DNA of 64,000 nucleotides from Vicugna vicugna (lineage: Eukaryota). Positions 3,121 to 63,112 of the stretch are shown here, in pieces. The translations under genes and the position numbers were made by a program. The stretch spans positions 806,001 through 870,000 of the forward strand of contig MU058059.1 of the NCBI GenBank assembly GCA_013265495.1, given 5' to 3'. Position 1 is the stretch's first letter. Each line of letters starts with the position of its first letter. A model generated the notes under the pieces. The model was not told where the DNA came from. It worked only from the letters and a program-made list of their open reading frames with translations, and did no database searches.

Positions 3121-3230
3121 GGGAGGGGAATAGCTCAGCGGTAGAGTGCATGCTTAGCATGCACAAGGTCCTGGGTTCAATCCCCACTACCTCCATCAAA
3201 AAAATAAAAATAAAAAAACCCCAAAAAACA
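3121..3230 (+). mobile_element. tRNA-Ala-derived SINE (camelid Vic-1 type)
   Basis: GGGAGGGGAATAGCTCAGCGGTAGAG...GGTTCAATCCCC with Pol III A and B boxes and an A-rich tail; AATAGCA on both flanks as a partial TSD. Confidence 0.85.
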
Positions 3231-5640: not shown

Positions 5641-5758
5641 TCCCTCTTTTTCAGGAGTGGACATAGTTATTTATTTATTTTTAGAGGAGGTAGGGGATTG
5701 AACCAAGACCTTATGAATGTTAAGCATGCGCTCTACCACTTGAGCTATCTCCTCCCCC
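5641..5758 (-). mobile_element. tRNA-derived SINE (Vic-1 type) with TSD
   Basis: Reverse-complement SINE body flanked by CACAAACATTTTTT at 5627-5640 and 5759-5772. Confidence 0.85.
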
Positions 5759-6442: not shown

Positions 6443-6610
6443 TTGTTTTCCCAAATATTTTAAAATTTTATTTATTTTGTTTGTTTGTTTTGTTTGAGGG
6501 GGAGTAATAGATTTTTGTTTATTTCTTTTTAAATGGAGGTACTGGGGATTGAAGCCAGGACCTCATGCTTGCTAAGCATGCGTTCTACCACTGAGCTATA
6601 TCCTCCTCCC
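6443..6610 (-). mobile_element. tRNA-derived SINE (Vic-1 type) with TSD
   Basis: Reverse SINE body; TSD CTTGGAATTCTTTTT at 6428-6442 and 6611-6625. Confidence 0.85.
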
Positions 6611-7272: not shown

Positions 7273-7411
7273 GGAGGGGAGGGTATAGCTCAGTGGTAGA
7301 GTGTGTGCTTAGCATGCACGAAGTCCTGGGTTCAATTCCCAGTACCTCCATTAAAAAATAGTAATAAATAAATAAACTTAATTACCCCCCCCAAAAAAAC
7401 CCTAGTTAAAA
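7273..7411 (+). mobile_element. tRNA-derived SINE (Vic-1 type) with TSD
   Basis: GGGGAGGGTATAGCTCAGTGGTAGAG...GGTTCAATTCCCAGTACCTCC; TSD CTAGTAGTGCA at 7262-7272 and 7412-7422. Confidence 0.88.
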
Positions 7412-19200: not shown

Positions 19201-20294
19201 GATTGGGAGGCTGGAGGGGGCAGGGGGCGGGGTGAGGCTTCCTTTTCTCAAGTGTTGCTGTTTGAATTCAGTGAAGCCCAGACTCAATTCTTACCTTTTT
19301 GAAATGCATCATATCTTTCCTCCCCAACTATCTGAGGCCCATGGCCACACAGCAAATACAAAACGACCTTTCAGGTTAAAGAATCAGAACACAGTTAAAG
19401 TATTCCAGGCCCCTCTACTCTTTTCCTTACTCCCATTTTTACCACAGCAGTCTTTAATGAGAACAGAGCCTGTAATTTAAGGGGGAGGAGAGAGACTTTG
19501 ATTCTACCCTAAAGAGAGCTTCCCACCTTAACAATGACCACGCGTTAGCCGCCGCCCTCTAACTAGCCTGACCGCGCCTGAAACACACACCCATTTCCGG
19601 GCTGGGAGACTGTGGGGTTCACGCCAATACATACACGCACATGCCCGCGCGCCGCTCAACTGCAGCAAATCTGACTATTCGCCAACTTGTAGCCACAGAG
19701 AACAGCAAAAGGACTAAAGTCCTTCACCGCCAGTTCCAAAAAGGCACTGCAACCACCAGCAGCGCCGCAGTTAACAGCCTCTGTACTGCAGCCTCCGGCA
19801 GCTGGAGTCACACGTCTAACTCCTTGAGGAGTATCGCTCTTCTGCCCTTCATCCCACTCCCCGGGCTTTATCCTCTTCTCTCCTCAGGAGGTCGCGAGGA
19901 ACCAGGTCTCCGTGCCACTTCTACAGAAGAGGAAGTGGCACTGAGGAAGGTTCCTACCGAAGTAGCCCGAAACCCGCTCCTCTTTGCCCCATCTCTCCCC
20001 ACTCCCGCTAAAGTAGGCGCCTGTGCCGCTGACGAACGTCCCAGTTCTCAAGGGCCCTGAGTCCAACGGGACATGGAGGAGCTAGGCGGGAAGCGGCGAG
20101 ACAACAGCTGAGATGGTTAGGACAGGTGGGGCGGGACTGAGGAGAGGGACACTCTCTTGCCGACCCCGCTCACAGACAGTAACTCCAAAACGCTCAGGTG
20201 GGCAGTATAGGAAAGGCCCCTTCTCCCTGTTCTCTCCCTTCCCTTCCCCGCTCCCCTCCTGGACACCTGGTGAAAGAGAAAGGTGCAGGTGTAC

Positions 20295-20310
20295 CTGGAG
20301 CGAACACCAT
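20295..20310 (-). CDS. AKAIN1: A-kinase anchor inhibitor 1 (C18orf42), first coding exon (16 nt: MVFAP + G); remaining coding exon not seen in this window, expected to the left of position 1
   Basis: Minus strand ATG GTG TTC GCT CCA G|GTACAC matches the AKAIN1 N-terminus MVFAPG as recalled; located in a CpG island; syntenic with ZBTB14 as at human 18p11.31. Confidence 0.8.
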
Positions 20311-20434
20311 GATTTTCTCCAACCGCTGCGCCCCAAGGTAGGAGAGACAGACAGACGGACGGACGGACGAAGGGTGGGCAGAAGGCCAGGACTTGGGGTC
20401 CGCGCTGGGGGCGCGCCAGCTGTGGGTCGGGACC

Positions 20435-20455
20435 GTCAGCACCTCGGACAGCTCC
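20435..20455 (+). promoter_or_regulatory. RE1/NRSE (REST/NRSF binding site)
   Basis: GTCAGCACCTCGGACAGCTCC versus consensus TTCAGCACCACGGACAGCGCC (18/21 identical, canonical 2-nt spacer). Confidence 0.8.
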
Positions 20456-20724
20456 CAGCAGCGCGATCCCGGGGCCGCGGCTCCCGCAGCGGCGCGCTCC
20501 GCCTCCACAATGCACTGCTCTGCCGGCGGCCACCCGGCGGCGGGAGGAGGAGAGCGAATGCCTGCTCAGTCCATCCCTCATTCCCGCGCCAGCTCAGTGT
20601 ACACTGCTGCTTGGGGAGCAAAACCCTTCTACCGCTTCCACGGAGAAGGAAGAACGGAAGAGGAAGAGAGAAAAGGTAATTGCCCGGCTTCCCGGCAGGG
20701 GGACAGTTAATTGCTTCTAATTAC

Positions 20725-20761
20725 CTGCTGTCTCTCGCCCCCGTGGATATCGAACTGACAT
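20725..20761 (-). CDS. AKAIN1: Candidate alternative first coding exon of AKAIN1 (37 nt: MSVRYPRGRETA + G)
   Basis: ATG...GCA G|GTAATT strong donor, phase 1 like the MVFAP exon; TATA-like run at about 20783-20794 upstream. Confidence 0.5.
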
Positions 20762-22371
20762 TTAGGATGGGCTTGCCCTTTTTTAATATATATAACTCAA
20801 AGAGCTTTACTCTAGAGGCTGACTCTGAGTTCTCTGAGTTGGGTCGGCTTTGAACAGAGGGGTGGGGCCTGCAAGTTAATAGGTCCTTGGGGTCCATGAC
20901 TCCTCTTTCTCCCAGAGTCCCAATCTTCTGCTAACGTCAGAAAGGACGCTGGAGGGAAGGACAGGCTGGCTAAGGAGCGTAAGGAGAGCGCCGCTATCAG
21001 GCGCCGCTCCCAGGCGGCTCTGAAAGCCCCCAAGCTTGGAGGCCCTCAAGGTGATCACTTTAGAGGCAGCAGGGCTGGCCAGCGCTGAGGAAAGAGACCT
21101 CGGTGAGGTAGGTCTCCACAGACAAATACACACCCTGTAAGAGGTGGGGCCAAAAGAGTTTCCTTCAAGTGTGAGAAAAGCCTTGGGACCCATCAAGAAA
21201 CATTAATGCTTCCCCCGCCTTCACCCAGTGGAAAACTGTGGCCCCATGTACAACAGTTCTACTCTAAAGATACTGGGACGTGTCCCGACGCTCACTTCAT
21301 GCTTCTAATACACTGCTCATTTTAAAGCTTTCTCTAGTTCCCTCAAGAAATACTTGGGTAGTGTGAGACAGCCCACAACAGGTACTACCCATCTGGGTTA
21401 CAACCCCAGTTAGAGTGACATAGGATCCTTCACTTTCAAAGCAAATGCCAGTTGCTTTGGGTTTTGGACTCTATTTTTGCAGCTGAATGGAGTTTTCCAA
21501 GAACAAAGGGTGATTAGTGTTGTTTCCATTGTTTTACAGGATTTCCTCCCTTGCACCTCTCCCAGCCATTCTGAAAATGCCATATTTCTTAATAATTTGG
21601 TTGGTGGCCATACATTTCACCCTCATTTGGCAAATATTAAGCATTCAAGTAGCCTTATTGGCACTAGATTTGTTCAAAGCCATCTGATAGATTGAAAATG
21701 CAAATAGTTTTACAGCTCTTGAACTACAGTTTGCATGGAGGCATATGGACAGTCAGAGCATAAAACAGTCAGTACTGCTCTTCGCACCTGGCTCAACACA
21801 GGCTTGAACAGATGGGGCCTGGCTCAGCAGCAAGATGCAAGTCAGCTGATGGGCAGGATGAAGTGTGTGCACGCCAGGATGCAGTCTTCTCACTTCCCTA
21901 AGTTACACCAAAAGCCAGGGACCAATGATGCTTCACTCTGTCTTTGCTGTATCACCAGACAAAGTGTGAAACGCTATTTGAAATAATCTTTCAATGACTG
22001 AAAGACCTCCTTCTCTTAACACAATCAAAAGGGCTCTCTTTTACCATCTTAATGGGTTTATTCTCCCAATGCATAAGTAATTACTCATTATTAATTTCAA
22101 GAAAAAAGCAATATAATGTAGGGAAAGAAAAAAAGGCTTGGCAAGCAGTCAGACCCAAGTACTACAACTTCACCATTTACTACTGTGTGACCTTTGATAA
22201 GTGATTTAACTGTATTATCTGCAAGGATTAAAGTATCCTGAAGGTTCGTTGTGAGGATTAAATGCGATAATGCATTAAGAGAGCACAGCCCCAATTAAAC
22301 ACATTCCAGGAAATTACTGACACTCTGGACATAGATGACACCCTATAGCAATGCAAACTAAATATGCTAGA

Positions 22372-28059: not shown

Positions 28060-30965
28060 TTGACAAAATCTTATACCTTTTCATGATTAAAAAAAAAAAC
28101 ACTCAGTAAACTAGGAACAGAAGGAAACTTCCTCAAGCTGATGACGGCATACATGACAAACCCACAGCTATCACACATTCAATAGTGAAAGACTGAAGTC
28201 TTCACCCCCAAATCAGGAACAAGACAAGGGTACCCACATTCATCACTTCTTCTGTTACACTAGAAGTCTTAGCTAGAGAAATTAGGCAAGAAAAAGAAAT
28301 ACGGCATACAAGTTGAAAAGAAGTCAAACTATTTGTATTTGCAGATGACATGATCCCACATATAGAAAAATTCCAAAGAATCCACACACAAAAAACTACT
28401 ACAGATAATCAACTTAGCAAAGTTGTAGGGTACAAGGTCAATACACAAAAATCAGCTGTATTTTTATCTACTAGAAATGGACAACACAAAAAGGAAATTA
28501 AGAAAAAAAATTTCATTTACAGTAACATCCAAAACCATAAAATACCTAGGAATAAGTTTAATCAAGCACAGGGTACAGTGAAAACTATAAAACGTTGCTG
28601 AAAGAAATTAAAGAAGACATAAATAAGTGGAAAGCTACCCCTGGCTCTGGATTGGAAGACTTAATATTGAGGAAGACTACCCAAATTCAGTGAAATCTCT
28701 ATCAAAATTCCAATGGCCTTTTATGCAGAAATGGAAAGGCCAATCCTAAAATTAATACAGAATAGTAAGAGGTCCCAAATAGTCAAAACAATATTTAAAA
28801 AGAAGAAGAAAGTTGGAGAACTCAAACTTCCTGATTTCAAAGTTACTACTAATCTACTGTGATCAAAACAGTGTGATACTCCAAAAATGGGCCAAAGACC
28901 TAAACAAGCAATTCGCCAAGGAAGAAATACAAATGATCAATAGGCACATGAAAAAATGTTCAATATCACTAATTATCAGAGAATGCAAATCAAAACTACA
29001 ATGAGGTATCACCTCACACCAGTCAGAATGAGCATCATTCAAAAATCCACAAATGACAAATGCTAGAGAGGCTGTGGAGAAAAGGGAACCCTCCTACACT
29101 GCCGGTGGGAATGCAGTTTGGTGCAGCCACTGTGGAAAACAGTATGGAGATTCCTCAAAAGACTAGGAATAGACTTACCATATGACCCAGGAATCTCGCT
29201 CCTGGGCATATACCCAGGAGGAACTCTACTTCAAAATGACACCTGCACCCCAATGTTCATAGCAGCACTATTTACAATAGCCAAGACATGGAAACAGCCT
29301 AAATGTCCATCGACAGATGACTGGATAAAGAAGATGTGGTATATTTATACAGTGGAATACTATTCAGCCATAAAAACTGACAACATATGCCATTTGCAGT
29401 AATATGGATGTTCCTGGAGAATGTCATTCTAAGTGAAGTCAGCCAGAAAGAGAAAGAAAAATACCATATGAGATTGCTCATACATGGAATCTGAAAAAAA
29501 CAAAAACAAAAACAAAAACAAAAACATAAATACAAAATAGAAACAGACTTACAGACTTAGAATATAAACTTGTGGTTGCCAAGGGGGCGGGGGATGGGAA
29601 GGGACAGACTGGGATTTCAAAATGTAGAATAGATAAACAAGATTATACTGTATAGCACAGGGAAATATATACAAGATCTTAAGATAGCTCACAGAGAAAA
29701 AAATGTGACAATGAATGTATGTATGTTCATGTATAACTCAAAAATTGTGCTCTACACTGGAATTTGACACAACATTGTAAAACGATTATAATGCAATAAA
29801 AAATGTTAAAAAAAAAGTGTGATACTGGCATACAGATAGATAGATCAATGGAATAGAACAGAGTCCAGAAATAAACCTATAAAGTTATGGCCAAATGATT
29901 TTCTATAAGCATGCAAAGACCATTCAATAAGGAAAGAATGGCCTCTCTAACAAATGATGCTGAGATAACTGAATCAATATTTGAAAGAATAAAGTTGGAT
30001 CTCTACATCACACTACAGACAAAAATTAACTTAAAATGTGTGAACAATCTAAAAGCAAGAGCTAAAACCATAAAACTTTAAAAAGAAAACATAAGGTTAA
30101 GTCTTCATGATGTTGGATTTGACAATGGGTTCTTCGATATGACACCAAAAGCACAAGCAAAAGAGAAAAATAGATAAACTGGACTAAATCTAAAAACGTT
30201 TGTGCCTGAAAGGACATTATTGAGAAAGTGAAAAGCATCTACAGAATGCGAGAAAATACTTGCAAATTATGTATCTGATAAGGGTCTAGTATCCAGAATA
30301 TATGAAGATATCTCTCACAATTCAGCAATAAAAAGACAAATAGATCAGATAAAAGATGGGCAAAGGATCTGAGTAGACCTCTCCCCAAAAGATACATAAA
30401 TTGCCAACAAGTAATAAAAAGATGTTCAACATCATTAGTCATTAGTTAACGCAAATCAGAGCCACAGTGACGTACCACCTGATACCCACTAGAAGGCTGT
30501 ACTTTAAAAAATGAAATGAAATGAAATGAAATGAAATGAAATAAAATAAAATAAAATAAAATAAAATAACAAGGGTTGGCAAGGATTTGAAGAAATCAGG
30601 ACCCTCGTACACTCCTGGTGGGAATGTAAAATGGTTCAGCCATTGAGGAAACTAGATTGACAGTTCCCAAAAAAATTAAACCACAGATTACCACAGATTC
30701 AGGCATTTCACTCCTACGTATATTTTCAAAAGAAGTGAAAACAGGGATTCATATAAGTACACATGCACACGTTTAAAGCAGCACTATTCACAATAGCCAA
30801 AAGGTAGAAACAGCCCAAATGTCCATCAGCCTAAGAACGGATAAACAAATTGTGGTATTTATGCTCAATGGAATATTATTCAGGTATGTAAAGGAACGAA
30901 ATAGTGATACATGCTACAGTGTGTGGAAGCTGAAAACACATGCTAAGAGGAAGAAGCCAGATGGG
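28060..30965 (+). mobile_element. Older LINE-1 ORF2/3' portion, interrupted by a younger L1
   Basis: RT-like TTTGCAGATGACATG (FADDM) at about 28338; L1 ORF2 C-terminal sequence through about 30960; (GAAAT)n/(AAAAT)n at 30511-30568. Confidence 0.85.
28881..29815 (+). mobile_element. Younger 5'-truncated LINE-1 with TSD nested in an older L1
   Basis: ORF2 C-terminus [32 protein letters not shown]...; AATAAA plus poly(A); TSD AGTGTGATACT at 28870-28880 and 29816-29826. Confidence 0.88.
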
Positions 30966-31419
30966 TGGAAAAAACGCGGGACTGCTTGGGTAGGAAGGAG
31001 GTCGGAGCGGAGAGCAGTGCTCACGGCCAGCGCCTGCCAAGGGCGGCTGACTGGACCAGAGGGAATTTGTTCCTCTCGTCAGTATAAACCTAGACTTGAC
31101 CCCTTCCCCTCCGCAGACCCTGCCCACCATCTGAACTTCAAGCTCATCTCCAAAGACCCTGGCACTCAGGAAGCCTTCACCACCGTTTCACTGACTTCGT
31201 AGCCAGAGTAAGTTTGTATACTCGGTGTCCCTCACGTCCTCAGGAAAACAAAAACAAACTAACCGAAAGCAGAAGCATCCGCTTCACAGAGCAAGGAGGC
31301 TCAGACGAGACGGTACCAGGCGGCCAGCACCTCCATGCAAGGGAGCTGCTCCGCGTCCTGTCAGCTTGGAAGGCCCACGGCATGGAATAGTCTGGAAGCA
31401 TGGAGGGCTTTATTAAACT

Positions 31420-32420
31420 TGCCTCCTCGCGGCTGTGAGGCCTTGGGCGAAACACGCGGACAGCTAGGAATGGGGAACACCCCCAATAACCACTGGAGCT
31501 GAGGCGAGGGACGGCGGAGCCAATCCGCAGCCTCGCGGGCGGGAGCTTCCCGTTTAAGCACCTGCAAGCTGGTCCGCGGAGGGAGCCCACCGGAAGTCGG
31601 CACTGCGCGCAGCCACGGAGTCAGATTCGTCCGCCGCGCGCGGCGATCGGTCCTGCGGCTTGGCCTCTGTCTACCCGACTTTCCTCCTCTCCCGGCCGCC
31701 TCCGTCGGCCTCATGCCTCCCGTCTCCCGCTTCTCCTGCCAACAGTCAGGGCGACCCTGCGCGCCGGTGCCCCGCCCTAGGCCCGGCCCGCGGAGGCCGG
31801 ACGCGCCGCCGCTGGGACCCGCCCCCCGACGACACGCACTTCCGGCGGCGCGGCGGCGGCGGGGACGATCCCGGCGGGCGGTGATGGACGCGCTGGCGGT
31901 CATGATGCAGGACCACCTGACGCAGAAGCATGCCCGGCGCAGGGAGAACAGCGAGCTCATGGACCAGGTGCGCCTCCTGCTGTGCAAGAAGGCCAGCCTG
32001 CTGGCCCAGGTGCGTCCGCCGGCCTGCCCGGTGGCTTTTCCCGAGACGTTCAAAGGCGACCCCGCCCGGCTCCCCGAGGTTTTGATCCAAGCGGCCTCTT
32101 ACATGAGGTTCTTCGAGGCCAGGTTCTCTAAGGACACCCTCAAGGTGGCGTTTTTAATCAGCCGCCTCAGTGGGCCGGCATAGGAGTGGGTTGTCCCCTA
32201 CCTCGCGGGGGAGAGCTTCATCCTGGCTCATTACGAGGGCTTCGTGGACACACTGAAGCGGGCCTTCGGCAGGAATGGGTAGAAAACTGGGGGGCTGCGA
32301 GCCCCTGCGCTCCCCACCGACGCGGTCGTGCTTGGATTTGACCCCCCGGCTGCTGGACCTGGACCCGTGCGAGGAAAAGTGGCCGCCGCCTGTTGTCGCC
32401 AGCCTCGCTGCCTTTGCTCT
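31420..32420. promoter_or_regulatory. CpG island with CCAAT box (31520-31524) and ETS/GABP motif CCGGAAGT (31590-31597), probable promoter of the LDOC1-like locus
   Basis: Very dense CpG; motifs seen directly upstream of the LDOC1-like ATG. Confidence 0.75.
31884..32282 (+). pseudogene. LDOC1-like (RTL/SIRH/Mart, Ty3/Gypsy gag-derived) intronless gene with one premature TAG at codon 100
   Basis: MDALAVMMQ...ENSELMDQVRLLLC..ASLL.QVRPP.CPV.FPETF.G...RLPE...Q.ASYM...KVAFLIS.L.G.A*EWVVPY...ILAHYEGFVDTLKRAFGRNG*; ungapped match to LDOC1 as recalled; strong Kozak GCGGTGATGG; TAG at 32181-32183, second TAG at 32280-32282. Confidence 0.85.
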
Positions 32421-35269
32421 CTGCCGGGCAACCTAGCCACTGGCAGGGGACCTGTTAGAACTCGCACGGACCACTCCGAATCACGCCCCTGTCGCCTGCC
32501 GGCTCTGAGGACTGCCGCTGACAGCCTTGGACATTCTGGGCCAGCCTGGGAAGTGCCTGAGCTGGTCCCACCCCCAGGGACAAAGATTTGGATAGCTCAG
32601 GCCCAGAAACAGCTCCCAGGGCTCGCGGGCCTGGCAGCCAGATTTTTGACACTTGTGTCCCTGGAACCTGTTTTCCACATAACATCGAACATCGTTTCTG
32701 TTCTAAAACCACAACAGTCTTATAGATTGTGCCTTTTGGTCAGAGACATTCAGGCGCTGAACAGTACACGGGAAAAGTATTTACTTTTAAAATGTAAATA
32801 TGTATCTTTCAGCACCATTTGCTGAGGACTGTACTTGATGTTACAGGAGAAACGAGTAAGACGAAACGTATCTCCGCAGGAACACAATTATGAGAAAAAA
32901 ATCTCAGTGCATATTCTGATGTCTGGCAAGATAATGCTTTAGAGTGTAAAGAAAAGCATATTTGATTATTGTTTTATGACTTTTTTTGCTTTTCACGCCA
33001 TAGTTTAAAAATGCATGTTAAAAACATGCAGCGTACCAAAGAGGCAGGCAGAAAACCCAACGTGAGCAATTATGTTTGCTGTTGAATCTGGCGAAGATGG
33101 TGTTTTTTAAAGAGCATGTAACTCATAGCAAAAAAAAAAGGGGGGGGTGCATTCTTTGAGCTCTAGCCAATTCCCTTTATCCCCCATATTAAATGACCTC
33201 ACTCCCGTCTTTTTTGTACATTACATTTTTGGCCTCAGTTTTTCTTTTGTAATTAAAAGCTTTTTATCATTAAAATTGGGTTCAGAATTCTGTGACTCTC
33301 TTATGAGGCCAAAAAAGGGAAAGATAAAGAGGATCTGAGCCCTCCTGTTCAACAGAGGAGTTTTTGAAACCCTTGAGGCACCAAAATCCATTAATTCTCT
33401 TTCCTTAAATGTCCATGGGCTTTCTCCTGCTGGTCAACATAGTCTCACTGAAGTATCTTAAATTCCTGGTTAAACATATTAAGAAAAACTCATCACTGCC
33501 TCCTGGGTGGACAGTTTACATATTTGAGGACCATAGTGAAAACCTCTAATTATATTTTTGCACAGTGTGATTAAAGCCAGGTTACAGCAATTATTTTATC
33601 GTTGCCAGTTAGCATTGTAAGAGATTTTAAGGAGACTGGGCCCCTCCACGTGACCTCCTATATACTGCATTGCTGCAGTATGTATGTACTAACAACAACA
33701 ACAGAAAAACCTACAGAATATAGCACCAAAAAAATTTCAGCAAACATCCCAAGAGCACATGTTTGGTAGGATAGCAAAACTTCCTAATGAAAGATCAGCA
33801 GCAACATGTAAGTCAAATAGTACATGAAAAAAATGTAACTCAGTAGTCAAAATGCCTCATATTTAATCTTCTATAGTTCTCTTTTTAGAGGATATCTTAG
33901 ATCTCCGCCAAAAAATAAAAAAGGAAAGAGAAAGTACACAAGGCTATCTTACAAACAATGACACGGGCAGGAGGAGGAAGAGAAGGTCAGTGACTTCCAC
34001 ATCATATTTTTTCCACCCCTTGAAAAGATTAGAGAAATGAGTGTTCATGGAGTTATGTCTGTAGTAAGTTGACCTTTTTCCTTCTGACCTAGATTTCAGC
34101 TTTGGCGGGCTGTTTTCTGCACCTTCTCCATCACCTGGGGTACAGTCTCTGAAAATCCAGTAATTTTCTTCATCCCTAAGCATTTCACGTGGAGCTCTGC
34201 TTGGCTTTTCAATTTCAGGTTCTCTATTTGCATGGCTTTAACTGCCTTATGGGGGAACCACAGTACATTCATGAATGGAACCAAATGGCCCAAGGACCAT
34301 CACAGGAAAACCCAGAGCTCCTAAGACAGCAGATGCCACCGGCCTTACGTTAGGTGGCCTTCCTCAGGAAGGTTGGGCATCTTAAACGCTGTTTGTCTTA
34401 GGGGCCACGGAAACCAGTTTACTAGAGCTGTCTTTCAGATGTGCATCAGACTTGACGAATAAAGGACTTTTCTCAAAGCAGACTCTTGAGCATCCTAGGT
34501 GGTGCTGATGCTGTTGGTGTAAGGGTCAAGCATCAGAAATAAGAAAAATGTTTAATTCTCCCTGGCACAAAGAAAAGGGGGCATTTATTTTAGAGAACTT
34601 GTCCTTGTGGGCTCGTTCTCTGCGTTTTGAAATGTATGTACATCTTTTCAAAGGCTGAGTAAGCCCCTTGCACACTTTACAATCCAGGGATTTCTCTTTG
34701 AAAGGGGACCTGGAGGCATTGCATTGAACTGTAATCGCCAAGGAAGACAGCACTCCTTCTATTTTGTTCCCCTTCAAGGGAGGAGGGAATAAAGTGACTG
34801 GTCAGAACTCACTGGTCTTTGGACATCCTTTACCTTGTGGATGGATCTGGAGACGCACCCCCCGTGCTCAGGCAGAGCTGGTCCCCTGGGGCTTACTGTC
34901 CCTTTGCAGTAGGGTGCTATAGCAAAACAGTCCTGACTGCATCCATCCTTATTCCCTTCCTGTCCACTGTCCACTGGTCATGGGTCCTTTTTTTGTTTAA
35001 TTTCCCCAAATAGTTCACTTGATTTACCTGAAGAGATTGGAGGTCTATTTTCGGCTTGCAACAACATGGGTATTAGAGGCATTTCCAGTCAGCTTTGTTC
35101 TTCACTTTGCTGCAGAAATGATGCCATTTTTATAATAGGATATTGGCCACACTTCATGTTTTTCTTACGACTCTGTTGTTTGACATCACCCCTTTGTCAG
35201 ATGACCATAAATACCTGCATCAAGAAAATAAAGCCACACAGAATCTCCAGTTGTTTTATAAATGAGAAA

Positions 35270-53502: not shown

Positions 53503-54849
53503 CTAGCTGCAGGCGATGGTCTCCAGCTGCTGCTCGGCCTCCGCGGCCATGGCCGCCGCCTGCAGCTGCTCCGTCTCGCTCTGGATGGCGCTGGGGGTGA
53601 CCTGCTTCCTCTCGCTGTGCATATTGTTCTCGTGCCTTTTCAGATCCGACGCCTTGGCGAAGGCCTTGGTGCAGGAGCCGCAGACGAAGGGCTTCTCCCC
53701 ACGGTGCCTGCGCTCGTGGTCCTTGAGGTGGGACTTGTGCTTGAAGGCCTTGTCGCACATGTGGCAGGCGAAGGGCCGCTCGTTGCTGTGCACCCGCTCG
53801 TGCTTCTTCAAGTCCGGCGCGCGGATGAACGACTTGCCGCACACCTCGCAGCTGTAGGGCTTGTAGCCCGTGTGGATCTTCAGGTGCTCCTTGAGGTGGG
53901 CCTGCGTGGTGAAGCCCTTGGTGCACATTTCGCAGACGAAGGGCCGGTCGGCTGTGTGCAGTTTCTCGTGCTTCCGCAACCTGCCCTCGTCCGAGAAGGT
54001 CTTCCCGCAGGCCTGGCAGGCGATCTGCTCCCGGTGGTGGCCGTAGAGCAAGTACTCGAACTTCATGTCGCTGGTGGCGGTGGTCCAGCCCGGGGTCTGC
54101 TCATCCTTCACTTCACTCATGCCGTCGTTAAATGTTAAGGCTTGAGGGGTCTGGGACCCCAGATCCTTCGACTCGGGCGTCTCCATGGACTCGACTTCCT
54201 GGCCGTAGCAGTTGACTTTGCGCACCTCCTCGCTCCCCAGCTCCTTCAGGATCGCCTCCTGGACCCTGAGCGTGGTCGTAGGTGACTTGCCGTCCTCCTG
54301 GCTAGGGGGGGTGCCTTCTACCGTGTCATCGGAAGGACTGTCATCCTGATCTCCGATTTCTTCCACGTCGTCGTCCTGAGCGTCAGCGGCGTCTCCGATG
54401 GGGCGGTTTATCTTGAGGCAATACTTGCTTTTGGACTGGCCGTTATTTTCGTCGGGACTAGACACGTCGCGCTTCTGCGAACAGAGTTTATCCAAGAATC
54501 GGATCCCCAGAATCTGACCTGATGACATCATTAAGTTAACATCTTCTTTTTTCACGGAAATCTTGGCAGTGTACATGTAATTCAGGACCTCTTCAAATAT
54601 ATCAGAGCGAAGAAAATCTATTTCTATGACGGACGAGCTATCAACCTCAAGCTTCTTGAAAAGCTTTTTAAAGTAGGTGCTGCAGGCGGCAAGAACGCAC
54701 CTGTGTGCTCGGAACTTCACATCTTCCACCACGATGGCGATGTCGCAAAATTCTCCTTCCAGGCGTTGTTCATTTAGCGTTTTCAGAAACAGAGTTTTAT
54801 GATCATCGTCATTATATTTAATGGTTTCAGACATACTGATGAAAAACTC
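53503..54849 (-). CDS. ZBTB14: Zinc finger and BTB domain-containing protein 14 (ZF5/ZFP161), main coding exon
   Basis: Acceptor TTTTTCATAG|GAG TTT TTC ATC AGT ATG gives (M)EFFISMSETIKY...; BTB domain (FCDIAIVVEDVKFRAHRCVLAACS), acidic linker, five C2H2 fingers, C-terminus LETIACS; 449 aa with the upstream ATG. Confidence 0.97.
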   Translation of the reverse strand, partial: EFFISMSETIKYNDDDHKTLFLKTLNEQRLEGEFCDIAIVVEDVKFRAHRCVLAACSTYFKKLFKKLEVDSSSVIEIDFLRSDIFEEVLNYMYTAKISVKKEDVNLMMSSGQILGIRFLDKLCSQKRDVSSPDENNGQSKSKYCLKINRPIGDAADAQDDDVEEIGDQDDSPSDDTVEGTPPSQEDGKSPTTTLRVQEAILKELGSEEVRKVNCYGQEVESMETPESKDLGSQTPQALTFNDGMSEVKDEQTPGWTTATSDMKFEYLLYGHHREQIACQACGKTFSDEGRLRKHEKLHTADRPFVCEMCTKGFTTQAHLKEHLKIHTGYKPYSCEVCGKSFIRAPDLKKHERVHSNERPFACHMCDKAFKHKSHLKDHERRHRGEKPFVCGSCTKAFAKASDLKRHENNMHSERKQVTPSAIQSETEQLQAAAMAAEAEQQLETIACS

Positions 54850-56680: not shown

Positions 56681-57409
56681 CTACAGGGAGGATCAAAGAA
56701 TTCTAGCTTTGTACACGTTTTAACTTTTACCACGGGGCCTCCATCCTGCAGACCAACATCCTGAAAAACAAAGTCTCCCCTGCAAACAGTGACCACACAA
56801 ACTTGCGTGTGGTAGGACCAAAGTCCTGAAAACCCTTAGAAGTTCTCTCTACAGAAAAGCAAAAGCACCAAGCCGCCTCGAGCAGCAGGCTATTTTCTTA
56901 TCTGCCAAGTGTGAGGGTTGGGCAAAATTATTTCTAAGGCTGCTTCCCGCCCTGTCTGCTCCCTAGGTGCACCCTGGCCTGCAGTCACCCTCAAGGGAAG
57001 GCAACTAGGCAAAACCTTCCTGCCGGGGCCACTTCCTCCTGATGCGAGCGGCTCTCCCTAGGGCTTGTGGGATAAAAGTACATGGACCAGACACAGGAGT
57101 GGCGTACAGTACCCATGGTAACAAATGACTGCGCTGGATTTTTTTTTTCTTTTTCTTTTTTGGCCAGTGTGTTATTTGGCCTCGACTCTTTCAGTATCTC
57201 TGAGGACCTTTTTTTTTTTTCTGCTGAGATGTTCCCATTGCCAAGTTCAGGTGAGTCAAACTGGAAGACATCCGCTGCCACTATCCCAGAAGCTGGAGGG
57301 AAAGATGTATTCCCGACCACCCCTCCAGTACGAAGCTGCCCACTTTATTAAGGTTTTCCAAACCGCCGCCACCGAGCTGGAGCGGGGACTCCCGCAAAGA
57401 CAAACTTAC

Positions 57410-57480
57410 ATAAGCGGCGGCGGCAGCCTCCCCTGCCCCGGAGCCGCCGCGACAATGGCGGCGGCCCCACTTCCCGGTCG
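57410..57480 (-). other. ZBTB14: Candidate ZBTB14 non-coding first exon
   Basis: Donor TAT|GTAAGT at 57410; YY1-like GCCGCCATTG and ETS-like CCGGGAAGT near the likely start; 5' end approximate. Confidence 0.6.
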
Positions 57481-57836
57481 CAAGCTCGCAACTTCGGGAT
57501 AGGGGGGTGGGGTGGGAGCAGGGAGCGAAGCGCAAGACCCACGGCGGCCCCAGAGCCTTTCCAAGCCTCGCGCCCATTTCTGTCGGCCCGGGAGGCCCGG
57601 GGAGTGAATAAAGCCTTTGCATTCCTCCCGGAACAAAAGCTCCCGGACTCGGGAGCCGGGAGGTGAAAGGGCCGCTTTCCCTTTCAGAATCGGGCATTCG
57701 GCGCAGGCTGGGGCCGCGCCTCCGAGCGCGAGAGGGAGGACCCACGGCGGCCCCGGCGGCAGGGAGCGGGAGCGGGCGGGCGGCCGGGCTCCGCGGCCCC
57801 GCGCCGCGCCGCGCCGCGCCCCGCTCCGCCCGCGAG

Positions 57837-58640
57837 NNNNNNNNNNNNNNNNNNNNNNNNNNNNNNNNNNNNNNNNNNNNNNNNNNNNNNNNNNNNNNNN
57901 NNNNNNNNNNNNNNNNNNNNNNNNNNNNNNNNNNNNNNNNNNNNNNNNNNNNNNNNNNNNNNNNNNNNNNNNNNNNNNNNNNNNNNNNNNNNNNNNNNNN
58001 NNNNNNNNNNNNNNNNNNNNNNNNNNNNNNNNNNNNNNNNNNNNNNNNNNNNNNNNNNNNNNNNNNNNNNNNNNNNNNNNNNNNNNNNNNNNNNNNNNNN
58101 NNNNNNNNNNNNNNNNNNNNNNNNNNNNNNNNNNNNNNNNNNNNNNNNNNNNNNNNNNNNNNNNNNNNNNNNNNNNNNNNNNNNNNNNNNNNNNNNNNNN
58201 NNNNNNNNNNNNNNNNNNNNNNNNNNNNNNNNNNNNNNNNNNNNNNNNNNNNNNNNNNNNNNNNNNNNNNNNNNNNNNNNNNNNNNNNNNNNNNNNNNNN
58301 NNNNNNNNNNNNNNNNNNNNNNNNNNNNNNNNNNNNNNNNNNNNNNNNNNNNNNNNNNNNNNNNNNNNNNNNNNNNNNNNNNNNNNNNNNNNNNNNNNNN
58401 NNNNNNNNNNNNNNNNNNNNNNNNNNNNNNNNNNNNNNNNNNNNNNNNNNNNNNNNNNNNNNNNNNNNNNNNNNNNNNNNNNNNNNNNNNNNNNNNNNNN
58501 NNNNNNNNNNNNNNNNNNNNNNNNNNNNNNNNNNNNNNNNNNNNNNNNNNNNNNNNNNNNNNNNNNNNNNNNNNNNNNNNNNNNNNNNNNNNNNNNNNNN
58601 NNNNNNNNNNNNNNNNNNNNNNNNNNNNNNNNNNNNNNNN
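57837..58640. other. Assembly gap (804 N)
   Basis: Run of n characters. Confidence 1.
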
Positions 58641-61600
58641 GCACAGACTGTCTAGCCGGCCGTGAACACCCCCACCGGCACCCCCCCTTCCCGTGCATGC
58701 GCGGTGCGGGCCAGGGGGAAGGCGCGCCGCCGGCTTGCGCAGGCACGGAACCCGACCGGGCCTCTAAATGGGCGAGCGGGGAAAGGGTTAATCCGGGACC
58801 TTGCGACGCTATCGTTGGAGTCTACGGGGCCGCCCCCGGAGGGCCCTGGCCTGCGCAGGCGCGCGCACGCGCGCGGCTTGGGGCGCGCGGAGCCCGCGCG
58901 CGGGAGAAGGGGTGGGCGGGACAGGGGCGGGCCTTCGGCGGCCGAGGAGCGAATGCACGAGCGCCGCTCGCGGGCACCCGCTCCGCCTGCAGCTCTCGCC
59001 TTCCGCTCGGACTCCTGAGCTCCCGCCCGCGCCTGGCGCCGGCACAGCACCGGGGACGCGGGAGCCCGGCGCTCCCGTGCGTGTGCATGTGCGTGGGCAG
59101 TGCCGCCCTCGGGCGCGCGCAGGCCGGGCGCTGCGGCTGCGGGGCTCGCCCGCGACGCCAGGGCGGGCGCCTGGGACACCCTCCCCTCCGCGCACACCCG
59201 TGACAGCGAGCCGCGCGCTCGCCGGCGTTAGGTCTTAGCTGCTATCGCTGTCGCATTATGCATATTGGAGCAGTGCTAGGCGCTCACTAAACATTTGCAG
59301 AACAAACGCAGAAAGCGACATCTTTCATTTGGAGTGGATCACCCTTAAAGCTCTGAATCCAGCTAAGGGCGCGCCCACGCTCCCGCCTTTCCCCGGACAC
59401 TCGCAGGGGAAAGTCACGGGGGCGGAGGCCGTGGCGCATCTCCGGCAGTCGAAGGCCTGGGCTCGATTTCATTTGCAGCGCCCTCGGAGAGCTCTGATAA
59501 CTCAGCGCTGTGCCTACATCCCCGTTCAGCAAAAGTAATGACTCCACTGCTGTTGAAGCCACGTCGCGTCCCCTCAGACCTAGTGACCTGGGCCTGTGCA
59601 TGGCGTCAGACCTGAGAAGTCCCTTCTGCTCCCGCGTTTTCTGCTCACCTCAATCCAGCAATCTGGACAGCACGGCATCTCCGTAGAGTCCCTTGTGCTG
59701 CTTTACCACACTTCCTTAACAGCGTTTCACAAAAACATGCGTAATTTACATCTAAAAATTAGAGCAGAACCTTCCTCGTGGGCTTGTGTGATGAGTGCGT
59801 GAGATAATGCTTGAAACAGGTACATAATACACATTTAAGAAATTATGATTGTGTTAAATTCCAGAGAAATTATATATGGCCTGAAATGACTTTGTAGTGT
59901 TTATTTACGTTAGTTTCAACGTTTCAAAGGTGCTTTTATACGCATCACAAAAGCATGGGGGTTATTAGGTCTATTCACTGCAGCAGGATAGAGGAGACCA
60001 GTTCTAGAGTCAGACATACCCAGTTCAGATATTGAGTACATTATTTAACTTCGCTAAACCTCACTCCTTATTCTCTGATAAGAACAGGGAGTTGTGAGGA
60101 TTAAATGGAATAATGCTCAGCTAAGTGCTTAGCTCAAATACTAGCTTGATGGTGTTAAATGACCTGCCAACTCTCCGCAGATAGTGGGTTTAAGTGGCAG
60201 GGGCAAGATCAGAACCACCGAAGTTCAGGCTCATCCTTTACCCAGGTGGCCAAGTTCCCTCTGATGCCACGCTGTGCCTGTTTATTCTTACAGCTTTACA
60301 CGCCAACCCGATTTTTTGTGTTTATAGGGGGATAGTAATAGTACTATGTCATAGGATTATGTTTCAAGCAATAAAGCTGTCCCTGCATTTAGCCGTGTAT
60401 GGGCACACGTACCACCTGGTTATGGTTCACTGCTGCGACTCCCTCTTCTCCCAGACAGCGTAATTGCACAGGCTTACACACTCATTCTGCATATATTTAT
60501 CATCTACCTACTATGTAAAGGCCGTCTCTTTGCATGTAGCTAATAAAGTCTTCCCAGGATTTTACTAATCTGCCCCAAATAAAATAGTTCAGAAGAGTTC
60601 TCCAGCACCAGAATGCATTTCTTAAGAAAAAGACGCCTGACATCTTGGTTTTGCCTCAATTACCCCTCTGTTTCATTTGTTTTATACGCTAGTACCCTGG
60701 GCTCTGCCGGGGCTGCCCTGTACTGCATGGCAGTTATGGGATGGGTCTAAATTAAAGGGGCAACTCGGTGGGATGGAGGAGGGAGGGGTGGGAAACTACA
60801 AAGGAAAGGCCTGACCCAGCATCTCACCATAACCCACCAGCCTTGAACCGGCACTGCCCAGCATCCATTAGGCGCTCAATAAGTATCAGAAGACAGATAA
60901 GCGACAATCCAGAAGTCAGTCCCACGGGGAGTTATAAGGACACACTGTGGGGACAACGGGGGTCAGGACCTTTCTGAAAAGCACCTACCTGAGGCCCTTG
61001 AAGGAAGTGTTCTGCGACTCCCACCAGGAATGCTTTCAGTCTGTGAAACACAATATACATTTTATAGAATAGTATCCTAAGAATTACGACCCCATGAGGT
61101 TTTCACTGGAGTTACTGTACAGTCACTTAAATAATAGCAATAAAACCGAGAGGAAAAAAGTCTCTAACTTATTTTAGAAGAAAGATCAAAAAAGGTTATT
61201 GCTGTGTCTCTGGATTATTTAGTGGTCTTGTTAAGAACAAAATTACTGTAATTATACTACCTACAAATAGGATAAAATGGAAGCAATTAATTGATAAGAT
61301 TCACATTTAAGTAGTCTACAGCTGTAGAACATTATTCTAAGAATTGTAAGTATATCTAGCTTCTACTTGAGCCACTGTATAATTTCTTAATTAATAAATA
61401 ATTAAGCAATAAAACTAAGAGAACAAAATCAGTTACTTTAGTAGAAAGAGGGGAAAAGCACCTTATTATAGTCCTGTACCTTCAGAAGTATGCTGATTAG
61501 AAGGTGAGTCTGCTTACAGGATAATTCCCTTCTGTTTTCGGGTTTTGTAGATACGTGACTGCATCCAGCCTGTGCACCTTTCTTATCGCCTGTGTTGGTT

Positions 61601-62257: not shown

Positions 62258-62386
62258 GTATTTGGGGGGGAGGTAATTAGGTTTATTTATTTATTTATTC
62301 TTTTTCAAGGGAGGTACTGGGGATTGAACCCAGGACCTCTTACATGCTAAGCATATGCTCTACCACTAAGCTGTACCATCCCCTGA
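62258..62386 (-). mobile_element. tRNA-derived SINE (Vic-1 type) with TSD
   Basis: GGAGGTACTGGGGATTGAACCCAGGACC...CTCTACCACTAAGCT; CTAATTTGGGG on both flanks. Confidence 0.85.
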
Positions 62387-62984: not shown

Positions 62985-63112
62985 TTTTTTTCTTTTGGTG
63001 GGAGGTAAGGCAATTAGGTTTATTTATTTATTTTTAGTGGACATACTGGGGATTGAACCTAGGACCTTGTGCATGCTAGGCATGCACTCTACCACTGAGC
63101 TGTGCCCTCCCT
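62985..63112 (-). mobile_element. tRNA-derived SINE (Vic-1 type)
   Basis: TACTGGGGATTGAACCTAGGACCTTGTGCATGCTAGGCATGCACTCTACCACTGAGCT. Confidence 0.85.

What the first reader, a model, noticed from the sequence alone, without database searches (positions are those of the whole stretch)
31884..32282. Autosomal LDOC1-like (domesticated Ty3/Gypsy gag) gene between AKAIN1 and ZBTB14
Seen: an intronless ORF with strong Kozak context in its own CpG island. It aligns without indels to LDOC1 (RTL7/SIRH7) over about 130 codons, roughly half identical by manual comparison to the LDOC1 sequence as I recall it. It keeps the N-terminal coiled-coil/leucine-zipper segment (ENSELMDQVRLLLC) and the gag-capsid-like core (FPETF.G..RLPE, KVAFLIS, EWVVPY) but lacks the acidic tail. 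Known: LDOC1 is X-linked and RTL6/LDOC1L lies elsewhere; I know of no named RTL/SIRH/Mart member at this locus. Inference: this much divergence with no frameshift suggests a long-lived separate paralog that spent most of its history under selection, i.e. a possibly unrecognised extra family member rather than a recent processed pseudogene.
Basis: partly seen in the sequence, partly recalled or inferred. Interest (0 to 1): 0.88.

Follow-up and report, generated by a model that had tools for sequence, protein, structure and literature searches.

The report
Broken copy of unnamed LDOC1 paralog

Summary
The frame at 31884-32282 is genuine LDOC1-type (DUF4939) sequence: Pfam E 7e-32. It aligns without gaps to this genome's own LDOC1 (53% aa, 70.7% nt). 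It lies in a CpG island and lacks the acidic tail. Contigs of two relatives about 0.3% diverged show no difference anywhere in the frame, so the TAG is not an assembly error.

The locus belongs to a clade of 132-aa proteins auto-annotated "protein LDOC1-like". These are intact, indel-free and 73-97% identical between orders in cetaceans, bats, a rhinoceros, squirrels, a gopher and lagomorphs. The clade is separate from LDOC1 (support 97/94). An AU test rejects an origin inside boreoeutherian LDOC1 (p 0.0097).

The window's copy changes 12 of 93 conserved columns, the joint-highest count. Three changes fall in the predicted zipper core. Its end branch is 0.13 against a median of 0.027.

Verdict: an old, constrained RTL/SIRH-type paralog that I found in no paper as a gene. 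This copy is most likely a lineage-specific pseudogene that keeps its promoter island. I could not test dN/dS or synteny in other species.

The parts
31400..32650 (.). CpG island covering the presumed promoter, the whole reading frame and the start of the 3' region
   Evidence: GC 0.67, CpG o/e 0.83, 116 CpG. The upstream part 31400-31884 has o/e 1.04. Flanks have o/e 0.21-0.23.
31884..32180 (+). Open part of the LDOC1-like frame, codons 1-99
   Evidence: Taken alone it still matches Pfam DUF4939 at E 1.9e-19, profile positions 4-74 of 112.
31887..32009 (+). N-terminal long helix (residues 2-42), the predicted coiled-coil/zipper segment. This copy has H, K and R at core positions 11, 15 and 18.
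   Evidence: AF2 model of ortholog P0001 has helix 2-42. The homodimer model places the interface at residues 4-43, with least error at 15-15, 18-18 and 25-25. Substitutions.
32181..32183 (+). In-frame TAG at codon 100, where 26 of 27 aligned orthologs have Glu and one has Lys
   Evidence: DNA contigs of organisms D and E cover the place, and all of their 10 and 8 substitutions lie outside 31884-32282.
32184..32282 (+). Codons 101-132 and the ancestral stop. They are still in frame behind the TAG and keep the invariant residues W102, P105, L114, F120, V121, L124 and F128.
32037..32273 (+). Retroelement capsid (CA) lobe, residues 52-130, interrupted by the TAG inside helix 97-108
   Evidence: The model of P0001 matches the dArc1 CA lobe (Z 9.4, rmsd 1.8, 72 aa) and the Ty3 CA-NTD (Z 7.8, rmsd 2.2, 70 aa). 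Pfam Ty3_capsid is a weak hit.
32283..33290 (+). 3' untranslated-like region up to the ATTAAA signals at 33188, 33252 and 33269
   Evidence: RNA-library contigs of a relative about 5% diverged cover 31837-33224 (a 1442-nt contig) and 31264-33310. There is weak collinear similarity to the 3' regions of the own LDOC1 and RTL8-like loci, E 8e-5.
53503..54849 (-).
   Evidence: Pfam BTB E 3.3e-29 and zf-C2H2 E 1.3e-25. The Atlas resolves only to the ZBTB family.

Best explanation
The locus is this genome's ortholog of an ancient paralog of LDOC1, called LL here. Databases auto-annotate it as 'protein LDOC1-like'. It is an intronless gene derived from a Ty3/Metaviridae gag.

In other mammals LL encodes a 132-aa protein made of a long N-terminal helix and a single capsid lobe (a 'half-CA'), with no acidic tail. 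The helix is modelled as a parallel homodimeric zipper.

In the window's lineage the gene has been inactivated. An in-frame TAG at codon 100 removes about half of the capsid lobe. Three zipper-core positions and several other conserved positions have also changed. The locus is therefore most likely a lineage-specific unitary pseudogene.

Its CpG-island promoter is preserved and may still drive an intronless transcript of about 1.4 kb.

What is shown: family membership, the stop, its presence in close relatives, and the excess of changes.
What is inferred: loss of protein function, past purifying selection, dimerisation, and transcription.
For: 1. Family and orthology.
- Pfam DUF4939 E 7e-32.
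- Of 37 hits, the 33 best are LL-type, at up to 86% identity.
- In a 46-row tree the LL clade is supported 97/94 and the LDOC1 clade 96/93. The window sits inside LL.
- An AU test rejects grouping LL with boreoeutherian LDOC1 to the exclusion of afrotherian LDOC1: delta lnL 16.6, p 0.0097.

2. The family is constrained.
- 20 of 20 named full-length orthologs in alignment A1 are exactly 132 aa with no internal gap.
- Identity between orders is 73-97%.
- 35 columns are invariant across 28 rows.

3. The break.
- TAG at codon 100.
- Contigs of two other organisms cover 30801-33800. All of their differences (10 and 8) are listed, and none lies in the frame.
- 7 further DNA runs hold 1.00 of the sampled words.
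- The genome has no second LL copy: 8 matches, the next best being LDOC1 at 53%.

4. Decay.
- The window changes 12 of 93 columns that are at least 90% conserved. This is the joint-highest count among 28 rows; four rows have 0.
- End branch 0.13 against a median of 0.027.
- It is 86.7% identical to cetaceans, its nearest group. The rhinoceros is 91-94% and bats are 85-97% identical to cetaceans.
- L11H, N15K and L18R hit the best-defined self-contacts of the dimer model.
- RNA-library contigs of a relative about 5% diverged read Leu at codon 11 and Asn at codon 15. Those two changes are therefore recent.

5. Structure.
- AF2 model of ortholog P0001: pLDDT 88.5, helices 2-42, 60-76, 84-93, 97-108, 112-115 and 117-128.
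- The TAG falls inside helix 97-108 and deletes the last two helices.

6. Dimer model.
- Score 0.32, best of 3 controls 0.02.
- On microbes the mark was reached by 21 of 30 proteins solved as pairs of one chain and 0 of 23 solved as single chains.
- On eukaryotes it was reached by 17 of 29 solved pairs, but by only 1 of the 7 with no older solved relative.
- The runs agree in at least 63% of contacts, and partner pLDDT is at least 75.
- The alignment was not used.
Against: - No nucleotide sequences of orthologs could be fetched. dN/dS and a formal test of relaxed selection were therefore not run. Constraint is inferred from proteins only.
- The 32 codons behind the TAG remain in frame and keep all 7 invariant residues. 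The stop is therefore young, or the tail is still read.
- Fast-evolving intact orthologs have similar or longer end branches: gopher 0.2, pika 0.16, hippopotamus 0.16. One intact unnamed ortholog, P0015, also changes 12 conserved columns. The excess alone does not prove decay.
- The CpG island is undecayed (o/e 0.83-1.04), and the locus appears in RNA libraries of a relative. The locus is therefore not inert.
- The state of codon 100 in that relative was not shown: 53 rows were hidden.
- The AU-test groups were chosen after the tree was seen. Only two afrotherian LDOC1 rows were used, and the outgroup branches are long (0.67 and 1.4).
Confidence: 0.75

Rival explanations
1. The truncated 99-aa product (zipper plus the first two helices of the capsid lobe) is still made and has a function, for example as a modulator of LDOC1-family partners.
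For: - The 99-aa frame keeps its ATG in good context and a CpG-island promoter.
- It still matches DUF4939 at E 1.9e-19.
- Henriques et al. 2024 note that truncated CA genes can be functional (passage read).
Against: - The cut lies inside helix 97-108 of a compact lobe. It removes 7 residues that are invariant in 28 aligned rows.
- Three zipper-core positions are replaced by H, K and R.
- No gene product from this lineage appears among the protein hits.
Confidence: 0.1
2. The TAG is read through or is an error, so that a full 132-aa protein is still made.
For: - The codons behind the TAG are in frame and keep all invariant residues.
- Retroviral gag-pol junctions are known to use UAG read-through (general knowledge).
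Against: - An error is excluded, because two other organisms' contigs show no difference in the frame.
- The 102 nt from the TAG onward fold with z = -1.79, and 9 of 200 shuffles fold at least as well. That gives no convincing downstream structure.
- 5 of the 12 conserved-column changes lie at or behind the TAG, within 33 codons: the stop itself, I107L, E108A, P112F and A123T. R109G is a further change there, shared with lagomorphs.
Confidence: 0.04
3. The locus now works at the RNA or DNA level, as an lncRNA or a promoter island, possibly bidirectional. This does not exclude the best explanation.
For: - CpG o/e is 1.04 in 31400-31884 despite the broken frame.
- A 1442-nt contig in an RNA library of a relative spans 31837-33224 and ends near the ATTAAA signals.
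- Frameshifted LL-type ORFs of a pig-like source (P0037) were seen on 76 contigs of Logan assemblies of public runs. The kind of those runs was not checked.
Against: - RNA libraries can hold DNA. One contig runs 1.5 kb further upstream into sequence unlike the window.
- No strand, start or level can be read from contigs.
- No RNA run of the window's own organism was found.
Confidence: 0.3
4. It is LDOC1 itself, or a recent processed pseudogene of LDOC1.
For: - It is intronless, and the distance from about 31837 to the ATTAAA signals matches an mRNA of about 1.4 kb.
- An A10 run lies at 33128-33137.
Against: - A separate intact LDOC1 exists in the genome.
- It is only 70.7% nt and 53% aa identical to that LDOC1.
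- Orthologs of this locus form their own clade across six orders.
- The AU test has p 0.0097.
Confidence: 0.01

Closest known systems
LDOC1 (RTL7 / SIRH7 / Mart7)
   Same: - Same Pfam family, DUF4939.
- Same layout: an N-terminal helix followed by a single capsid lobe.
- Gap-free alignment over 132 codons.
- Intronless with a CpG-island promoter. Kokosar and Kordis 2013, Table 1, lists LDOC1 without a 5'UTR intron; its promoter-type marks are not readable in the held text (table read).
   Different: - 53% aa identity to this genome's LDOC1.
- No acidic C-terminal tail.
- A separate clade (97/94 against 96/93).
- A different contig, next to a ZBTB-family gene.
- LDOC1 is nearly invariant across placentals in the tree. 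LL is recurrently truncated: Saccopteryx, peccary, panda fragment, Bos fragment.
'Protein LDOC1-like' predicted proteins of 132 aa (NCBI/UniProt auto-annotation; e.g. porpoise, orca, Rhinolophus, Desmodus, Diceros, Marmota, rabbit)
   Same: - Same clade, same length in frame, same FGRNG end.
- 70-87% identity to the 27 aligned orthologs.
   Different: - This copy has an in-frame TAG at codon 100.
- It changes 12 of 93 conserved columns.
- Synteny of the other species' genes could not be checked here.
Human 'pseudogene related to LDOC1' noted by Henriques et al. 2024 (PMC11011659, section 5; passage read)
   Same: A broken LDOC1-related sequence outside the 24 intact human metaviral CA genes. 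It could be the human counterpart of this locus.
   Different: - The paper gives no position or analysis in the text I read.
- The stored supplement is cut and shows only LDOC1 orthologs in the tree.
- Identity with this locus is untested.
RTL10 (pattern of retention)
   Same: Per Henriques et al. 2024 (section 6 read), RTL10 is ancestral to placentals. It is intact in only some lineages (primates, basal Glires, cetaceans) and lost in many others. LL shows the same patchy pattern here.
   Different: A different clade and architecture. RTL10 is named and has been analysed; LL is not.
RTL8A/B/C (FAM127)
   Same: A short half-CA protein of the same Pfam family. The own-genome copies are 44-45% identical to the window's frame.
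   Different: The own-genome RTL8-like copies match the window's frame only from residue 15-20 on. They are a more distant clade.

Membership tests
DUF4939 / RTL-SIRH half-capsid proteins | Match to Pfam PF16297 above the gathering score | tested here: met
   110.1 bits against a cut-off of 29, E 7e-32, profile positions 4-105 of 112, read through with X at the stop.
DUF4939 / RTL-SIRH half-capsid proteins | Retroelement capsid-lobe fold | tested here: met
   Tested on the model of ortholog P0001 (pLDDT 88.5). Matches: dArc1 CA Z 9.4 (rmsd 1.8, 72 aa), Ty3 CA-NTD Z 7.8 (rmsd 2.2, 70 aa), Arc, PNMA2, PEG10. Foldseek gave no match at E <= 0.001, best 0.036. Z under about 13 for helical folds may mean only a common arrangement. 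Against that, the top 17 rows are all capsid proteins of retroelements or retroviruses, or domesticated genes derived from them.
DUF4939 / RTL-SIRH half-capsid proteins | Uninterrupted reading frame across the domain | tested here: not met
   TAG at codon 100, inside helix 97-108.
LDOC1 (RTL7) orthologous group | Falls inside the LDOC1 clade | tested here: not met
   The LDOC1 clade (12 rows, 96/93) excludes it. It lies in the LL clade (32 rows, 97/94). AU test p 0.0097.
LDOC1 (RTL7) orthologous group | Acidic C-terminal tail | tested here: not met
   The frame ends in FGRNG followed by a stop. The own LDOC1 ends in a run of D and E.
LDOC1 (RTL7) orthologous group | Only LDOC1-type locus of the genome | tested here: not met
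   A second, intact locus on contig C12405 is 97-98% identical to named LDOC1 proteins.
LL clade ('protein LDOC1-like', 132 aa) | Groups with the clade; 132 codons; no tail | tested here: met
LL clade ('protein LDOC1-like', 132 aa) | Intact ORF | tested here: not met
   The break is present in two further organisms.
LL clade ('protein LDOC1-like', 132 aa) | Shared synteny (next to the ZBTB-family gene) in other species | not testable with these tools
   The protein searches give no genomic context, and both metagenome scans found nothing.
LL clade ('protein LDOC1-like', 132 aa) | Codon-level purifying selection (dN/dS < 1) among orthologs | not testable with these tools
   No ortholog DNA could be obtained. 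The only proxies are proteins: indel-free and 73-97% identical between orders.
Recent processed pseudogene of LDOC1 | High nucleotide identity to the parent gene, poly(A) tail, target-site duplications | tested here: not met
   70.7% nt identity. An A10 run at 33128-33137 is the only tail-like feature. Target-site duplications were not searched.

The most novel reading that the evidence does not exclude
LL is a twelfth RTL/SIRH-type gene, and a twentieth metaviral-capsid-derived clade. It split from LDOC1 before the placental orders diverged. It has been kept as an exact 132-codon gene under purifying selection in cetaceans, bats, rhinoceroses, squirrels, gophers, lagomorphs and probably colugos. 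It has been lost again and again elsewhere: in this lineage, in suids and peccaries, in bovids, in some bats and carnivores, and perhaps in primates, if the human 'LDOC1-related pseudogene' is its counterpart. It was overlooked because the catalogue was built from intact human and mouse genes.
Probability: 0.55. Interest if true: 0.6.

Novelty: new member of a known kind. Interest (0 to 1): 0.45.

Why it matters
The RTL/SIRH genes are the textbook case of retrotransposon gag genes turned into placental and brain genes. Reviews count 11 of them in eutherians (abstract of PMC10604271, listing). The latest survey derives 19 ancestral capsid-derived clades from the 24 intact human genes (PMC11011659, section 6).

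A further old clade that is intact in many non-model mammals but broken in model species would change that count. It would also add a natural loss-and-retention series, like that of RTL10, for asking what such half-capsid proteins are needed for.

The copy in this window adds one dated loss event to that series. It is also a reminder that a frame aligning without indels still needs a check for stop codons.

Tried and rejected
- Ortholog DNA for dN/dS. Two scans of metagenome contigs found no relative (alignment A1; protein P0019). No codon-based test among orthologs could be run.
- Paralog dN/dS, window LL against own LDOC1. Differences by codon position are 41/31/46, and Nei-Gojobori dN/dS is 0.56 with dS 0.58. 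This lumps two genes and the decay phase, so it is uninformative.
- PDB by sequence. The single protein gave 0 hits at E <= 1. The profile gave only Ty3 Gag at E 0.25.
- Read-through structure behind the TAG. z = -1.79, and 9 of 200 shuffles fold at least as well. Not convincing.
- State of codon 100 in the relative about 5% diverged (RNA-library contigs X16, X17). Not visible, because 53 rows of differences were not shown and only one read-laying run is allowed.
- Parts of 30800-33800 without RNA-contig cover (before 31264 and after 33310). No conclusion drawn.
- Naming the neighbour gene. The exact sequence is not in the collection, and the Atlas gives only the ZBTB family.
- AKAIN1 was not tested. 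I listed 69 stop-to-stop ORFs in 1-30500 but did not scan them.
- Earlier findings of the scan: nothing, by place or by sequence.
- Rfam across the whole window: only 6 tRNA-type hits, none near the locus.
- Literature for a named gene. The terms 'LDOC1-like/LDOC1P/LDOC1 pseudogene/paralog/retrocopy' gave 3 papers, which I took from recall to use 'LDOC1-like' as the RTL6 alias; I read only the listing. 'LINC00526 + LDOC1' gave 3 papers; in the one I read the two terms are unrelated, and the other two are cancer papers by title. 'DUF4939/LDOC1/autosomal' gave nothing relevant among the 15 of 45 papers listed. 'RTL11/RTL12/SIRH13/SIRH14/Mart10/Mart12' gave 7 unrelated papers.
- Supplement of PMC11011659. 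It is stored cut, and it gives no entry or coordinates for an LDOC1-related pseudogene.
Full report
WHAT IS IN THE SEQUENCE

The window is G000:C1337:806001-870000 of a 2.03-Gb assembly in 12,405 contigs. From ATG 31884 the + strand reads a 132-codon LDOC1-type frame that ends at the TAG at 32280-32282.

Codon 100 (32181-32183) is an in-frame TAG...SGPA*EWVVPY.... The open frame is therefore 99 aa, or 156 aa from an upstream in-frame ATG at 31713.

The remaining observations hold:
- The start context is GGTGATGG.
- 31400-32650 is a CpG island: GC 0.67 and CpG o/e 0.83, against 0.21-0.23 in the flanks.
- The frame ends in FGRNG with no acidic tail.

WHAT FAMILY IT IS

Read through with X at the stop, the frame matches Pfam DUF4939 at 110.1 bits (cut-off 29, E 7e-32). 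It matches Ty3_capsid weakly.

The genome holds 8 matches to it:
- the window itself;
- an intact 146-aa LDOC1 with an acidic tail on contig C12405 (53% identity; 97-98% identical to named LDOC1 proteins);
- two RTL8-like copies (44-45%);
- an RTL6-like copy (39%);
- three weaker matches (30-35%). I read one of them, by recall, as PEG10-like from its frame.

So this is not LDOC1 itself, and the assembly has no second copy of its own type. At the DNA level the frame aligns gap-free to the own LDOC1 over 396 nt at 70.7% identity. That is far too diverged for a recent retrocopy.

THE ORTHOLOGOUS CLADE

A protein search gave 37 hits. The 33 best are not LDOC1 but a distinct set of proteins, mostly exactly 132 aa, up to 86% identical to the window's frame. 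NCBI and UniProt name them "protein LDOC1-like", "protein LDOC1" or "DUF4939 domain-containing protein".

Cluster listings and a profile search add to the species list. Named species with full-length proteins:
- many cetaceans: porpoises, dolphins, beluga, narwhal, sperm whales, rorquals, baiji;
- a hippopotamus (partial);
- bats of both suborders: Rhinolophus, Pteronotus, Desmodus, Molossus, Phyllostomus, Sturnira;
- two rhinoceroses;
- squirrels and marmots, and a pocket gopher;
- rabbit, hare and pika;
- a colugo, as a longer gene model.

Truncated or frame-disrupted forms occur in Saccopteryx, a peccary, a pig-like source seen on 76 contigs, the panda (fragment), Glossophaga and Bos mutus (fragment). 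No primate, afrotherian or xenarthran LL protein carried a name in these searches. That is not evidence of absence.

In a 46-row maximum-likelihood tree the LL clade (32 rows) is supported 97/94. The LDOC1 clade (12 rows, including two afrotherians) is supported 96/93. The window lies within LL, nearest to hippopotamus and cetaceans, on a fork drawn open (91/87).

An AU test rejects the tree in which LL groups with boreoeutherian LDOC1 to the exclusion of afrotherian LDOC1, RTL8 and RTL6 (delta lnL 16.6, p 0.0097). This places the LL/LDOC1 split before the crown-placental LDOC1 ancestor. Three caveats apply: I chose the groups after seeing the tree, only two afrotherian rows were available, and the outgroup branches are long.

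IS THE FAMILY CONSTRAINED?

I could not obtain ortholog DNA, because both metagenome scans came back empty. No dN/dS was computed among orthologs.

The protein evidence is strong but indirect:
- 20 of 20 named full-length orthologs in alignment A1 are exactly 132 aa with no internal gap.
- Identity between orders is 73-97%, for example cetacean-rhinoceros 91-94% and bat-rodent 73-90%.
- 35 columns are invariant in 28 rows.

From general knowledge of neutral divergence between placental orders, an unconstrained 396-nt stretch would have gained indels and stops. It would also be far less similar at the protein level. This step is an inference.

IS THE STOP REAL, AND IS THIS COPY DECAYING?

DNA contigs of two other coded organisms (D and E) cover 30801-33800 in one piece. 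They differ from the window by 10 and 8 substitutions. All of these are listed, and none lies in 31884-32282. Both therefore carry the TAG. Seven further DNA runs hold 1.00 of the sampled words. Some of these may be the source sample and so are not independent.

The window changes 12 of 93 columns that are at least 90% conserved among the other rows: L11H, N15K, L18R, R31L, E35K, N38S, F66V, the stop at 100, I107L, E108A, P112F and A123T. This is the joint-highest count of 28 rows. One unnamed intact ortholog, P0015, also has 12, and four rows have 0.

Its end branch is 0.13 against a median of 0.027. The gopher (0.2), pika (0.16) and hippopotamus (0.16) are as long or longer.

It is 86.7% identical to cetaceans, its nearest group. 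The rhinoceros is 91-94% and bats are 85-97% identical to them.

RNA-library contigs of a relative about 5% diverged read T at 31915 and C at 31928. That gives Leu at codon 11 and Asn at codon 15, as in the other orthologs. These contigs show no indel inside the frame. At least two of the zipper changes are therefore recent. Whether that relative has the stop was not visible, because 53 rows were hidden.

STRUCTURE AND LIKELY MODE OF ACTION OF THE INTACT PROTEIN

An AF2 model of the porpoise ortholog with a 34-row alignment has pLDDT 88.5. It shows a long helix (2-42), a linker, and helices 60-76, 84-93, 97-108, 112-115 and 117-128.

Residues 52-130 match retroelement capsid lobes: dArc1 CA (Z 9.4, rmsd 1.8, 72 aa), Ty3 CA-NTD (Z 7.8, rmsd 2.2, 70 aa), then Arc, PNMA2 and PEG10. 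Foldseek ranks the same families first but only at E 0.036 or weaker. Z values of this size are common for helical models. The argument rests on the top 17 rows all being capsid proteins of retroelements or retroviruses, or domesticated genes derived from them.

A two-copy model supports a parallel dimer through residues 4-43:
- Score 0.32, best of 3 controls 0.02.
- On microbes the mark was reached by 21 of 30 proteins solved as pairs of one chain and 0 of 23 solved as single chains.
- On eukaryotes it was reached by 17 of 29, but by only 1 of the 7 with no older solved relative.
- The runs agree in at least 63% of contacts, and partner pLDDT is at least 75.
- The alignment was not used.

The best-defined self-contacts are 15-15, 18-18, 25-25, 22-22, 32-32 and 11-11.

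In the window's copy, positions 11, 15 and 18 are His, Lys and Arg. The TAG falls inside helix 97-108 and removes the last two helices with 7 invariant residues. Both parts of the protein are thus damaged. I take this as the main functional argument for a pseudogene; it is an inference.

WHAT REMAINS ACTIVE

The CpG island is undecayed, with o/e 1.04 just upstream of the ATG.

In one RNA library of the relative, a 1442-nt contig spans 31837-33224. It ends close to the ATTAAA signals at 33188, 33252 and 33269. This fits an intronless mRNA of about 1.4 kb.

Another contig runs 1.5 kb further upstream into sequence unlike the window. RNA libraries can also hold DNA. This is therefore only a hint of transcription. 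A role as a non-coding RNA or a promoter island stays open and is compatible with the pseudogene reading.

RIVAL READINGS

- A functional 99-aa truncated protein cannot be excluded, but the damage described above argues against it.
- Read-through of the TAG has no support. The downstream fold has z = -1.79, and 9 of 200 shuffles fold at least as well.
- An assembly error is excluded.
- "LDOC1 itself" and "recent processed pseudogene" are refuted.

COMPARISON WITH WHAT IS IN PRINT

- Reviews count 11 eutherian RTL/SIRH genes (abstract listing of PMC10604271).
- Henriques et al. 2024 (PMC11011659) derive 19 ancestral clades from the 24 intact human genes (section 6 read). [quoted passage not shown]
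- Their supplementary tree text lists only LDOC1 orthologs and cattle/marmoset duplicates under LDOC1. The stored supplement is cut, so a table I could not see may say more.
- Kokosar and Kordis 2013 list no such gene (passages and tables read).
- Searches for LDOC1-like/LDOC1P/pseudogene/paralog/retrocopy, LINC00526 with LDOC1, DUF4939/LDOC1/autosomal and RTL11/12, SIRH13/14, Mart10/12 found no description of this gene.

The gene family member therefore exists in sequence databases under automatic names. In the library I could search, it is not described as a gene.

VERDICT

- I rate it a new member of a known kind, of moderate interest.
- The interest lies in the LL clade as an overlooked RTL/SIRH-type gene with a patchy pattern of retention, not in this pseudogenised copy.

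Noticed in passing
window 32521-32679: Short stretches of the 3' region are weakly but collinearly similar to the 3' regions of the own LDOC1 locus (32617-32679 vs L002:2538-2605, 70.6% over 68 nt, E 8e-5) and of both RTL8-like loci (32521-32578, E 8e-5). The same stretch shows up as shared 'peptide' text in frameshifted LL ORFs of other mammals (P0034, P0037). It may be a conserved 3'UTR element or a relic of the ancestral element.
   Followed up: partly
window 3124-3195, 5683-5754, 6534-6605, 7279-7350, 62309-62380, 63038-63107: Six tRNA-type Rfam hits (32-58 bits) are scattered on both strands. They are probably tRNA-derived SINEs rather than tRNA genes. Not checked with ARAGORN.
   Followed up: no
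window 19900-20800: A second GC-rich island (GC 0.60, CpG o/e 0.70) with long stop-free frames on both strands and no gene identified.
   Followed up: no
window 57837-58640: An 804-base run of N lies inside a strong CpG island (57300-59300, GC 0.73, o/e 1.02), upstream of the BTB-zinc-finger coding exon on the minus strand. It is presumably that gene's promoter, with an assembly gap.
   Followed up: no
window 33128-33147: An A10 run followed by G8. DNA contigs of organism D pile up and branch here (depth 119 against 40, with loose ends), and the relatives differ by small indels. It is a length-variable homopolymer, possibly an old poly(A) relic.
   Followed up: no
window 31264: Contigs from both RNA libraries of the relative about 5% diverged stop matching the window at exactly 31264, with the same loose end. 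This suggests an insertion or deletion difference upstream of the island between the two lineages.
   Followed up: no
window 30509-30567: An (AAATG)n microsatellite, 11.8 copies.
   Followed up: no
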